Virus record (IMG/VR): IMGVR_UViG_2541047759_000001
Reading direction: 5' to 3' (one strand)
Source: a virus
Lineage: Duplodnaviria; Heunggongvirae; Uroviricota; Caudoviricetes
Length of the DNA stretch: 64,000 nt
Shown here: positions 52,580-52,640 of the stretch, in pieces
How the letters are laid out: the number at the start of each line of letters is the position of its first letter
How positions within the stretch are numbered: the first letter of the stretch is position 1
Made by a program: the position numbers and the translations under genes
The notes under the pieces: generated by a model
Told to the model about the DNA's origin: nothing
The model's database searches: none
What the model saw: only the letters and a program-made list of their open reading frames with translations

Positions 52580-52640
52580 TGCGGACAACGTGAAACAACG
52601 AGACACAACGACGAACAACAAGGAACAAAATGGAACAACG
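52580..52640. repeat. Array of ACAACG direct repeats between int and alpA
   Basis: gacaacgtgaaacaacgagacacaacgacgaacaacaaggaacaaaatggaacaacg. Confidence 0.45.

What the first reader, a model, noticed from the sequence alone, without database searches (positions are those of the whole stretch)
52580..52640. ACAACG direct-repeat array upstream of alpA
About eight ACAACG units occur within ~60 bp in the int-alpA spacer, with a second CACAA/CCCAA-rich stretch at ~52845-52900 just before alpA. This could be a binding array for Int/AlpA (excision control) or another regulator.
Basis: seen in the sequence. Interest (0 to 1): 0.4.

Follow-up and report, generated by a model that had tools for sequence, protein, structure and literature searches.

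The report
Phased AlpA-type operator array in a PICI
The repeat is real: six short DNA units, spaced exactly one helical turn apart, sit between the integrase gene and alpA of a phage-parasitic island (the EcCICFT073 family), and they most likely form the landing pad for the island's small excisionase-like regulator AlpA, a known kind of site not yet described for this element.

Summary
The array exists, but it has six units (GNAACAAYGN; four exact ACAACG), not eight. They lie at a strict 10-bp period, 52582-52641.

Nothing else in the 64-kb window is phased like this except TTGT x4 upstream of int, which is its reverse complement.

The host element is an 11.4-kb PICI inserted between roxA and phoQ. 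Its AlpA protein and int-alpA spacer are identical to those of the prototype EcCICFT073.

A matrix built from the arrays of other islands finds only five places in the window:
- the array itself;
- the stretch over the putative alpA promoter;
- three arrays in the two att arms.

Twenty-six distinct alleles keep 5-7 units in register. The ACAA core is conserved and the linkers vary.

Separate tandem 12-mers follow the integrase arm-binding domain. The phased units do not; their flanks differ between the two AlpA types.

AlpA models as an excisionase-type winged helix. Published reporters place AlpA-dependent activation on 52525-52980, which holds both spacer clusters.

Best reading: a cooperative head-to-tail AlpA operator that couples alpA autoactivation to excision, as with Apl, Cox, Vis, TorI and RdfS. 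Binding itself is untested.

Verdict: moderate interest, a new member of a known kind.

The parts
52582..52641 (+). Distal array: six head-to-tail 10-bp units GNAACAAYGN, with ACAA cores at 52585, 52595, 52605, 52615, 52625 and 52635. This is the finding itself.
   Evidence: establish the phasing and its rarity. One search shows it conserved in 26 distinct alleles. One search gives it the top matrix score, 37.2.
52663..52675 (-). Exact match to the IHF consensus WATCAANNNNTTR, 22 bp downstream of the array. It is a possible bend site, inferred only.
   Evidence: 7 matches in the window against 2.6 expected. Several lie in the island's non-coding control regions. By eye, a TTGAT-containing match at the same place is kept in other alleles.
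52733..52762 (.). 12-bp inverted repeat AAAGGCGTAAAA / TTTTATGCCTTT in the AT-rich middle of the spacer. On the minus strand a T-run follows it. Its function was not established.
   Evidence: Read directly from the sequence. It is conserved in the spacer alignment. GC content is 27-29% here.
52832..52860 (+). Putative alpA promoter: TTGCCA, 17 bp, CACAAT, with an upstream TG. The -10 hexamer is itself the first proximal unit.
   Evidence: it is the only plus-strand sigma-70-like match in the spacer. Diverged alleles keep TTGCCA-17-AACAAT. It is a consensus match only; no transcription start site is known.
52853..52892 (+). Proximal cluster of the same unit: ACAAT 52856, ACAAC 52866, CCAAT 52876 and CCAAT 52888. 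It overlaps the putative -10 and the first ~25 nt after it.
   Evidence: One search scores it 19.6, the second-best plus-strand hit in 64 kb.
52923..53111 (+). alpA: a 62-aa protein of the excisionase-type winged-helix family, identical to EcCICFT073 AlpA (WP_000953274.1).
   Evidence: Pfam PF05930, E 3e-17. Model pLDDT 87, and the best solved folds are excisionases. PDB 8C3T matches by sequence at E 2e-10. HM670 and CFT073 carry the same protein accession.
51328..52557 (+). int: a P4-type tyrosine integrase with an N-terminal arm-binding domain.
   Evidence: Pfam PF13356, PF00589 and PF22022. Annotated as an integrase in HM670 and CFT073.
51147..51156 (.). attL identity block GGACATATTT, the left island boundary next to roxA.
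   Evidence: Empty sites in other E. coli genomes match the window only up to 51156. The same 10-mer is found at both ends.
51173..51215 (-). P' arm block 1: about four weaker units ((T)TGTTTCA as read on the plus strand) at a period of about 10 bp.
   Evidence: One search detects the chain. One search scores it 13.6, third on the minus strand, against 5.1 for the next hit.
51236..51275 (-). P' arm block 2: four units reading TTGTTCC, TTGTTTC, TTGTAGC and TTGTGCA on the plus strand. They are the reverse complement of the array units, with 14 of 15 identity to 52585-52599.
   Evidence: (inverted repeats I1-I4), (score 32.9).
51282..51305 (+). Tandem 12-mers GGTGTAGTTAAT x2, the probable Int arm-type sites on the P' arm, just upstream of int.
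   Evidence: They co-vary with the Int N-terminal domain across islands. The layout matches the annotated attP arm repeats of P4.
62388..62420 (-). P arm array: three units reading CTTGTGTCTA, TTTGTTCCAC and GTTGTTTCAT on the plus strand.
   Evidence: (75-nt direct repeat D1), (score 30.6).
62434..62457 (+). Tandem 12-mers GGTGTAGTTAAT GGTGTAGTCAAT, the probable Int arm-type sites on the P arm.
   Evidence: The same is present in CFT073.
62500..62512 (+). IHF consensus match between the P-arm 12-mers and the core.
62532..62541 (.). attR identity block GGACATATTT, which overlaps the phoQ stop codon.

Best explanation
The array is a multi-site operator for AlpA, the island's own excisionase-type winged-helix protein.

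**Proposed mechanism (inferred).**
1. One AlpA monomer binds each 10-bp unit, head to tail on one face of the helix. Together they form a short cooperative filament that bends the DNA.
2. The same unit occurs in five clusters: six units here, three to four over the alpA promoter, and three arrays in the two att arms.
3. With six contiguous units, this array should be the highest-avidity cluster and so the first to fill when a little AlpA is made.
4. With the adjacent IHF-type site and the promoter-proximal units, it would then drive the positive feedback on alpA that commits the island to its cycle.
5. The shorter arm arrays would fill as AlpA rises and direct Int towards excision.

**Shown.**
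- The phasing, rarity and conservation of the array.
- The restriction of the motif to these five sites.
- The fold class of AlpA.
- From the literature: AlpA activates a reporter carrying this fragment and triggers Int-dependent excision.

**Inferred.**
- That AlpA is the binder.
- Filament formation.
- The order in which the clusters fill.
- Any role for IHF.
For: **Anatomy.**
- Six head-to-tail units at exactly 10 bp. Simulated sequence essentially never produces this.

**Selection.**
- 26 distinct alleles from islands 73-99% identical keep 5-7 units in register.
- The ACAA core carries 1.5-2.0 bits per position and the G three bases upstream 1.0 bit. Linker positions carry less than 0.5 bit.
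- Copy number changes by whole units.

**One motif, five sites.**
- A matrix built only from other islands' arrays was scanned for three units in phase over 64 kb on both strands.
- It ranks the array (37.2), P' arm block 2 (32.9), the P arm (30.6), the promoter cluster (19.6) and P' arm block 1 (13.6).
- Background tops out at 11.2. The null has mean -45.8 and sd 12.

**Not Int.**
- The tandem 12-mers change with the Int N-terminal domain: RHSTSGLL with GGTGTAGTTAAT, KYLTSGKL with GGTGTAGTCACT, and IKHSKGGK with GTGTGGTCAGTT.
- The phased arm units are identical in the window and L004, although their Int N-domains differ.
- They differ between the window (TTGTTCC) and L006 (TTGTTCG), whose N-domains are the same but whose AlpA types differ.

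**Arm and spacer arrays co-vary with island type.**
- L006-type spacers carry an inverted (A/G)CGAAC array of 3-4 units that matches their own TTGTTCG arms.

**AlpA is the right kind of protein.**
- Pfam PF05930.
- The model's best solved matches are the GIsul2 excisionase (TM 0.83), RdfS, Pukovnik Xis, TorI and BldC.
- It is 47% identical to P4 Vis. Phage homologues are annotated as excisionases.
- Variants of the only other small DNA-binding candidate examined, the YlcI/YnfO protein, do not follow array type.

**Experiments on the identical protein and spacer in EcCICFT073.**
- AlpA in trans activates PalpA-lacZ. The cloned fragment maps to 52525-52980 and holds both spacer clusters.
- AlpA over-expression causes Int-dependent excision without raising Pint.

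**Precedent.**
- RDFs bind cooperatively to direct repeats one helical turn apart, both at att and at promoters: Apl (PMC7498355), Cox (PMC3936717), TorI (PMC2951348) and RdfS (PMC11963761).
Against: - No binding data exist, and none could be produced here.
- AlpA had no measurable effect on a Pint-lacZ fusion whose fragment (~51020-51866) contains the attL arm arrays. TorI, by contrast, represses PintS at the equivalent sites in KplE1.
- L006-type islands carry a second phased motif (AATATCG/AAGTTCG) at the position equivalent to this array. It does not match their arms. So position alone does not identify the binder, and a second factor may be involved.
- The split between AlpA types coincides with the Int phylogeny. 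No recombinant joining a distant Int to a window-type AlpA was found. The co-variation with AlpA type is therefore partly confounded.
- The distal array lies about 225-280 bp upstream of the putative promoter, and the proximal units overlap the -10. How that geometry would activate transcription is unexplained.
Confidence: 0.6

Rival explanations
1. The units are arm-type binding sites for the integrase N-terminal domain. The array would then be an extra cluster of Int sites flanking the int gene, for autoregulation or looping.
For: - The same unit is present in both att arms and is inverted on the two sides of int.
- Arm arrays of this kind accompany every Int relative examined, down to 67% amino-acid identity.
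Against: - The element that co-varies with the Int N-domain is the tandem 12-mer pair, not the phased unit.
- The 12-mers have the layout of the annotated P4 attP arm repeats and of the doubled motif reported for helper-embedded PICIs (PMC10111431). They number four, matching an Int tetramer.
- The phased units number about 20 or more. The array is 1.4 kb from the attL core.
- The window and L004 share identical arm units despite different N-domains.
Confidence: 0.08
2. The array is the docking site of a helper-phage protein, for example the phage's own excisionase-type winged-helix protein. That protein would switch on alpA, as P2 Cox does by binding phased cox-boxes upstream of the P4 PLL promoter.
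For: - alpA transcription needs a helper phage, and the phage activator was unidentified in 2018 (PMC6092414).
- P2 Cox activates P4 through six or more phased boxes upstream of PLL (PMC3936717).
- P4 carries three tandem 10-bp repeats upstream of vis.
- Cross-talk between a PICI AlpA paralogue and a phage excisionase has been reported (PMC11773190).
- The lambda X1-X2 region is the best three-unit hit of the array matrix within a 3-kb lambda segment.
Against: - That lambda hit scores only -0.4, against 30-37 for the island's own sites. That is about what chance gives in 6 kb of positions.
- AlpA alone activates the reporter and induces excision without any phage.
- The arm and spacer arrays differ between island types, which points to an island-encoded binder.
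Confidence: 0.08
3. Another island-encoded or host DNA-binding protein binds the units. One candidate is an OmpR/PhoB-type response regulator, which also binds head-to-tail 10-11-bp repeats. Another is a nucleoid protein.
For: - Units such as TGAAACA and GGAACA resemble, from memory and untested here, OmpR-type half-sites. OmpR sites at ompF span six 10-bp half-sites.
- L006-type islands show that a second, unassigned phased motif can occupy this position.
- The spacer is AT-rich, 27-29% GC.
Against: - In 64 kb the motif is confined to the island's att arms and the alpA upstream region.
- Its flank differs between island types.
- Variants of YlcI/YnfO, the other small DNA-binding candidate examined, do not track array type.
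- No host-regulator matrix was available for a test.
Confidence: 0.12
4. The repeats act at the RNA level, as an unstructured C/A-rich element in the int 3' UTR or the alpA leader (a translational enhancer, or an Hfq/S1 binding site). Alternatively they are slippage products with no function.
For: - The proximal stretch is C/A-rich and G-poor, with GC skew -0.57. It lies in the probable alpA leader.
- Copy number varies by whole units.
Against: - The strict 10-bp phasing matches the DNA helical repeat.
- The same unit occurs inverted in the att arms, where the transcript would read G/U-rich.
- The core is conserved while linkers vary across 26 alleles.
- No Rfam family matches.
Confidence: 0.05

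Closest known systems
Coliphage 186 Apl operators (at pR-pL and at attP)
   Same: - A small RDF-type protein serves as both excisionase and transcription regulator.
- Its sites are direct repeats 10-11 bp apart: seven between the promoters, and more at att.
- Binding needs three or more adjacent sites, and affinity rises with site number (PMC7498355).
- Here there are six units near the regulator's own promoter and 3-4-unit arrays in the att arms.
   Different: - Apl represses pR and pL. AlpA is reported to activate its own promoter.
- The Apl sites lie between two face-to-face promoters. Here the main array is about 225-280 bp upstream, with a second cluster over the -10.
- Apl is not a PF05930 protein as far as I know, and this was not tested. 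The resemblance is one of working principle.
P2 Cox boxes, including those upstream of the satellite P4 PLL promoter
   Same: - Six or more phased boxes, with one protomer per helical turn and a protected region of 70 bp or more.
- The sites act in repression, excision and activation of a satellite (PMC3936717).
- P4 has three tandem 10-bp repeats upstream of vis, the alpA homologue.
   Different: - At P4 the binder is the helper's protein, not the satellite's own.
- The box sequence (TTAAAG/CNCA) is unrelated to GNAACAAY.
- For this island the published data show that its own AlpA suffices.
KplE1 (CPS-53) attL with TorI and IntS sites
   Same: - The order of parts is nearly the same: core, two blocks of RDF sites (a pair, then three sites about one turn apart), Int arm-type sites overlapping the int promoter, then int (PMC2951348).
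- Here the order is core 51147-51156, block 1, block 2, the 12-mers, then int.
- TorI is among the structural matches of the AlpA model.
   Different: - TorI represses PintS. AlpA did not alter Pint.
- The passages of that paper read here describe no distant array upstream of the torI gene.
- Here phased units also sit in the other arm.
Satellite phage P4 Vis and attP
   Same: - Vis is 47% identical to this AlpA and is annotated as 'excisionase and transcriptional regulator'.
- P4 attP has pairs of 12-bp arm repeats on both sides of the core, with three phased TCCG units abutting the int-side pair. That is the same layout as here.
   Different: - The repeat sequences differ.
- P4 int points the other way relative to vis, and vis is several kb from int.
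- Vis binding positions were recalled from memory, not read here.
RdfS of the Mesorhizobium symbiosis ICE
   Same: - An oligomeric winged-helix RDF that binds attP upstream of intS and also within its own promoter, so it couples its own expression to excision (PMC11963761).
- It is the second-best structural match of the AlpA model.
   Different: - RdfS shows no clear consensus motif and oligomerises through an extra N-terminal helix that this 62-aa AlpA lacks.
- Here the units have a clear conserved core.

Membership tests
Operator arrays of excisionase/RDF-type winged-helix proteins (Xis, Cox, Apl, TorI, Vis, RdfS) | Three or more direct, head-to-tail repeats spaced one DNA helical turn (10-11 bp) apart. 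| tested here: met
   Six units at exactly 10 bp. 26 alleles hold 5-7 units in register. Simulated sequence does not produce this.
Operator arrays of excisionase/RDF-type winged-helix proteins (Xis, Cox, Apl, TorI, Vis, RdfS) | The same repeat is present in the element's att arms, near the Int arm-type sites. | tested here: met
   A matrix built from other islands' arrays ranks P' arm block 2 (32.9), the P arm (30.6) and P' arm block 1 (13.6) just behind the array. The best other minus-strand hit scores 5.1.
Operator arrays of excisionase/RDF-type winged-helix proteins (Xis, Cox, Apl, TorI, Vis, RdfS) | A cognate small winged-helix RDF-fold protein is encoded by the element. | tested here: met
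   AlpA matches PF05930. The model has pLDDT 87, and its best solved folds are the GIsul2 excisionase, RdfS, Pukovnik Xis and TorI. It is 47% identical to P4 Vis.
Operator arrays of excisionase/RDF-type winged-helix proteins (Xis, Cox, Apl, TorI, Vis, RdfS) | The protein binds the repeats cooperatively and bends the DNA. | not testable with these tools
   This needs gel shifts or footprinting. The only indirect support is genetic: AlpA in trans activates a reporter carrying 52525-52980.
Operator arrays of excisionase/RDF-type winged-helix proteins (Xis, Cox, Apl, TorI, Vis, RdfS) | The repeat sequence co-varies with the cognate protein across related elements. | tested here: inconclusive
   The arm-unit flank and the inverted spacer array differ between the two AlpA types. 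But AlpA type coincides with Int phylogeny, no informative recombinant was found, and L006-type islands hold an additional unmatched motif.
Arm-type sites of heterobivalent tyrosine integrases | The site sequence follows the integrase N-terminal arm-binding domain. | tested here: not met
   The tandem 12-mers follow the N-domain in three variants. The phased units do not: the window and L004 have identical units but different N-domains.
Arm-type sites of heterobivalent tyrosine integrases | The sites lie within the att arms, about 150 bp or less from the crossover core. | tested here: not met
   The array is 1.43 kb from the attL core, on the far side of int.
Replication-origin iterons of PICIs | Iterons flank an AT-rich stretch downstream of the pri/rep gene. 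| tested here: not met
   The array is upstream of alpA, 3 kb before the primase gene. In a related island, clear iterons (TTGCGGGTTA x3 and the inverted TAACCCGC x3) lie near the right end.
Gram-negative PICI, EcCICFT073 family (the host element) | Gene order int-alpA-primase in one direction, a dedicated att site, and phage-like capsid or packaging genes without a full virion set. | tested here: met
   The insertion site is roxA-phoQ, as in CFT073. AlpA and several other proteins carry identical accessions, and the array and promoter-proximal stretches compared are identical.

The most novel reading that the evidence does not exclude
The six-unit array may be the point at which the helper phage switches the island on. 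An excisionase-type winged-helix protein made by the induced helper would dock on these phased units, alone or mixed with AlpA, and start alpA transcription. P2 Cox does this at the cox-boxes upstream of P4 PLL. That would identify the cis target of the long-sought inducer of Gram-negative PICIs. It would also mean that these islands sense helper excision itself.
Probability: 0.1. Interest if true: 0.75.

Novelty: new member of a known kind. Interest (0 to 1): 0.4.

Why it matters
EcCICFT073 is the model Gram-negative PICI. AlpA is known to be its master activator, but I found no paper in the searchable library that defines where AlpA binds. The 2018 paper that characterised the element states that the phage-encoded activator was still unidentified.

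The analysis yields a concrete, mutable map: one 10-bp unit in five clusters. They are a six-unit array after int, a cluster over the alpA promoter, and arrays in both att arms. The map separates these units from the probable Int arm sites, the tandem 12-mers.

That makes three questions directly testable:
- whether AlpA is a dual regulator and excisionase, like Apl, Cox and Vis;
- how autoactivation and excision are ordered;
- whether the helper's signal enters through this array.

If it holds, the result is useful but not surprising, because the mechanism is a familiar one.

Tried and rejected
**Searches that yielded little.**
- A word-indexed protein search with AlpA returned only close E. 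coli relatives.
- The single genome-contig scan gave 8 loci, mostly distant MAGs. A few show direct repeats upstream of alpA, but they were too few to use.
- Two IMG/VR scans, anchored on Int and on AlpA, gave 160 loci. None was a recombinant joining a distant Int to a window-type AlpA, so the cleanest Int-versus-AlpA test could not be made.

**Ideas dropped.**
- I first read the AATATCG array of L006-type islands as the counterpart of this array, 'following the alpA allele'. That is too simple. Those islands also carry an inverted arm-like CGAAC array.
- I first read CGTTCG x2 upstream of alpA in the rcnR-type islands as AlpA sites. They are more simply the loop of a GC-rich hairpin followed by a T-run.
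- YlcI/YnfO as the binder: its variants do not follow array type.
- A replication origin: rejected on position, and because iterons lie elsewhere in a related island.
- Similarity to lambda Xis sites: the X1-X2 region is the best hit in a 3-kb lambda segment, but at a chance-level score.
- Known RNA families: none match in 51000-55700.
- A paper for PDB 8C3T: none found.

Full report
**1. What is in the sequence**

Twenty-eight bases after the int stop codon (52557) lie six head-to-tail units of 10 bp:

gcgg ACAACG tgaa ACAACG agac ACAACG acga ACAACA agga ACAAAA tgga ACAACG gg

- The ACAA cores start at 52585, 52595, 52605, 52615, 52625 and 52635.
- Four units are exact ACAACG.
- Tandem Repeats Finder reports period 10.
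- The hexamer itself is not enriched in the window: 33 found against 35 expected. What is exceptional is the phasing.
- In the whole 64 kb, at periods 8-13, only two regions hold exact 4-mer chains of four or more units. One is this array (ACAA x6, with CAAC x4 inside it). The other is TTGT x4 at 51239-51272, its reverse complement, just upstream of int.
- In 100 Markov simulations the longest chain was 2-3 units, and 4 once.

**2. The element**

- The window is E. coli, 100% identical to strain HM670.
- Genomes without the island match the window only up to 51156. The 10-mer GGACATATTT is present at 51147-51156 and at 62532-62541, where it overlaps the phoQ stop codon.
- The 11.4 kb between them carries int, alpA, a small minus-strand YlcI/YnfO gene, an Icd-like gene, DUF4222, a D5-type primase, SSB, a major capsid protein, a decoration protein and a Nu1-like protein.
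- CFT073 has the same kind of island at the same site. Its AlpA carries the same protein accession (WP_000953274.1), and the array and promoter-proximal stretches compared are identical.
- This is therefore the EcCICFT073 family, the prototype phage-inducible chromosomal island of Gram-negative bacteria (PMC6092414).

**3. One unit, five clusters**

- The reverse complements of the array units are GTTGTTCCAT, TTTGTTCCTT, GTTGTTCGTC, GTTGTGTCTC and GTTGTTTCAC.
- Over about 9 nt they match units upstream of int (CTTGTTCCAG, CTTGTTTCAC, GTTGTAGCCC) and units at the right end of the island (CTTGTGTCTA, TTTGTTCCAC, GTTGTTTCAT). One stretch matches at 14 of 15 positions.
- I built a matrix from the arrays of other islands only, and scanned both strands of the window for three units in phase.
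- The top hits were:
  - the array, 37.2;
  - 51236-51265, 32.9;
  - 62388-62417, 30.6;
  - the promoter-proximal stretch 52843-52872, 19.6;
  - 51173-51202, 13.6.
- The next best position in 128,000 scored 11.2. The null has mean -45.8 and sd 12.
- The motif is therefore confined to the two att arms and the region upstream of alpA.

**4. Layout of the att arms**

- Each arm carries a composite module, part of a 75-nt direct repeat: a phased array followed by two tandem 12-mers (GGTGTAGTTAAT).
- On the int side the order is: core, block 1, block 2, 12-mers, int start.
- KplE1 attL has the same order: core, TorI sites in two blocks, IntS arm sites over the promoter, then intS (PMC2951348).
- P4 is similar. 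Its record annotates pairs of 12-bp 'attP arm sequence repeats' on both sides of the core, and three phased TCCG units abut the int-side pair.
- A 'doubled motif' at about -81 and +132 of attP, with unknown binder, was reported for helper-embedded PICIs (PMC10111431). The 12-mers here sit at about -91 and +142.

**5. Conservation**

- I examined 74 distinct int-alpA spacers from E. coli genomes and IMG/VR contigs.
- All islands with this AlpA type (90% identity or more) carry the array. There are 26 distinct versions, with 5-7 units, always at 10 bp.
- Information content is 1.5-2.0 bits at each ACAA position and 1.0 bit at the G three bases upstream. It is below 0.5 bit in the linkers.
- One allele has gained exactly one unit.
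- This is the pattern of selection on phased contacts, not of a young duplication.

**6. Who binds?**

Int is unlikely.
- The 12-mers change with the Int N-terminal arm-binding domain, in three variants.
- The phased units are identical in the window and L004, whose N-domains differ.
- They differ between the window (TTGTTCC/TTGTTTC) and L006 (TTGTTCG), whose N-domains are the same but whose AlpA proteins are only 49% identical.

The arm and spacer arrays co-vary with island type.
- L006-type spacers hold an inverted array (A/G)CGAAC x3-4 at a 10-bp period. It matches their own arms and is kept in diverged alleles with different linkers.

The other small DNA-binding candidate examined does not fit.
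- Variants of the YlcI/YnfO protein do not follow array type.

AlpA is the right kind of protein.
- It matches PF05930.
- It models with confidence (pLDDT 87) as a winged helix. Its best solved matches are the GIsul2 excisionase (TM 0.83; sequence E 2e-10), RdfS, Pukovnik Xis, TorI and BldC.
- It is 47% identical to P4 Vis.
- Its homologues in Rhodobacter phages are annotated as excisionases.

**7. Published experiments that bear on this exact sequence**

- In EcCICFT073, AlpA supplied in trans activates a PalpA-lacZ fusion. Over-expression of AlpA causes Int-dependent excision and replication. AlpA does not change a Pint-lacZ fusion. alpA transcription needs a helper phage whose activator was not identified (PMC6092414).
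- I mapped the published primers onto the window. The PalpA fragment is 52525-52980 and contains both spacer clusters. The Pint fragment is about 51020-51866 and contains the attL arrays.
- The cis target of AlpA therefore lies in a 456-bp piece. The phased units are its most prominent repeated motif; a conserved inverted repeat lies there as well.

**8. Proposed mechanism**

- Proteins of this class bind head to tail, one per helical turn. Single-site affinity is weak and cooperativity is strong, so avidity rises with the number of adjacent sites (PMC7498355; PMC3936717).
- I therefore propose that AlpA polymerises on these units, and that the six-unit array fills first.
- Helped by the exact IHF consensus 22 bp downstream (52663-52675) and by the units over the putative promoter, the filament would drive positive feedback on alpA. 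That promoter reads TTGCCA-17-CACAAT, and its -10 is itself a unit.
- The 3-4-unit arm arrays would fill later and direct excision.
- All of this is inferred. Only the anatomy, the motif distribution, the fold class and the genetic data are shown.

**9. Weak points**

- There is no binding evidence.
- AlpA did not affect Pint, although the arm arrays abut it.
- L006-type islands carry a second phased motif (AATATCG/AAGTTCG) at the position equivalent to this array. It does not match their arms. An unidentified second factor may exist.
- The AlpA split coincides with the Int phylogeny, and no informative recombinant was found.
- It is unclear how an array 225-280 bp upstream, plus units over the -10, would activate transcription.

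**10. Rival explanations**

- Int arm sites: disfavoured by the co-variation data.
- A helper-phage protein docking here, as Cox does at P4 PLL: an attractive precedent. However, the similarity to lambda Xis sites is at chance level, and AlpA alone suffices.
- A host response regulator or another island protein: cannot be excluded.
- An RNA-level C/A-rich element, or slippage: hard to reconcile with helical phasing and with inverted copies in the arms. No Rfam match was found.

**11. Verdict**

- This is a real, conserved, strongly non-random regulatory array in a well-studied island family.
- It is best explained as an RDF-type AlpA operator that shares its unit with both att arms.
- The principle is well known from Apl, Cox, Vis, TorI and RdfS. 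Its application to the PICI master regulator appears undescribed in the literature I could search.
- Interest is moderate. The value lies in a precise, testable site map and in a possible entry point for the unidentified helper signal.

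Noticed in passing
window 51282-51305 and 62434-62457: Tandem 12-mers (GGTGTAGTTAAT x2) sit in both att arms, about -91 and +142 from the core centre. 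Across islands they change together with the integrase N-terminal domain: GGTGTAGTCACT with KYLTSGKL, and GTGTGGTCAGTT with IKHSKGGK. This argues that they are the Int arm-type sites. It also extends the 'doubled motif' reported only for helper-embedded PICIs, whose binder was left open (PMC10111431).
   Followed up: yes
window 52663-52675, 62500-62512, 61983-61995, 62037-62049, 62136-62148: Exact IHF-consensus matches cluster in the island's non-coding control regions: 7 in the window against 2.6 expected. One lies just after the array, and one lies between the P-arm 12-mers and the core.
   Followed up: partly
window 61983-62150: Three copies of TAAC(C/T)(C/G)GTTGAT(A/T)T(T/C)TTC lie near the right end of the island, each also matching the IHF consensus. 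A related copy is present in the L006-type island (L021 ~13495). Their function is unknown; a packaging or origin region is possible.
   Followed up: no
window 52733-52762: A conserved 12-bp inverted repeat (AAAGGCGTAAAA / TTTTATGCCTTT) lies in the AT-rich middle of the int-alpA spacer. Read on the minus strand it is followed by a T-run, like a terminator for a leftward transcript.
   Followed up: no
L006:2106-2147 and L006:2340-2363 (also L017, L078-L101): Islands with the second AlpA type carry two different phased motifs in the spacer. One is AATATCG/AAGTTCG x3-4, after a hairpin that follows int. The other is an inverted arm-like (A/G)CGAAC x3-4 nearer alpA. The binder of the first motif is unknown.
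   Followed up: partly
L018:3783-3823; also L019, L077, L174, L175, L182 immediately upstream of alpA: In islands with an accessory gene between int and alpA, a GC-rich hairpin followed by a T-run ends at the alpA start codon. Its 3' arm contains the GAGG ribosome-binding site. It looks like a terminator or RBS-sequestering element controlling alpA.
   Followed up: no
L021:13795-13965: A probable replication origin of an L006-type island: TTGCGGGTTA x3 and the inverted TAACCCGC x3 flank an AT-rich stretch.
   Followed up: no
window 58395-58425 and 60835-60865: Two 94%-identical 31-nt terminator-like hairpins (GCCGGAnnAATCCGGC followed by TTTTTT) lie after the SSB gene and after the 137-aa gene.
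   Followed up: no
window about 40400-46200: By the HM670 annotation, the end of a lambdoid prophage lies about 5 kb left of the island, next to potB. It carries a frameshifted tail-tip J gene, a Lom-family gene and tail-fibre genes. It is a possible resident helper, or the remnant of one.
   Followed up: no
L067 and L043 (IMG/VR contigs), array region: The number of array units varies by whole 10-bp units between alleles. L067 has seven units after duplicating GCAACAATGA, and L043 has five. The proximal cluster also shows a 10-bp deletion in L005.
   Followed up: partly
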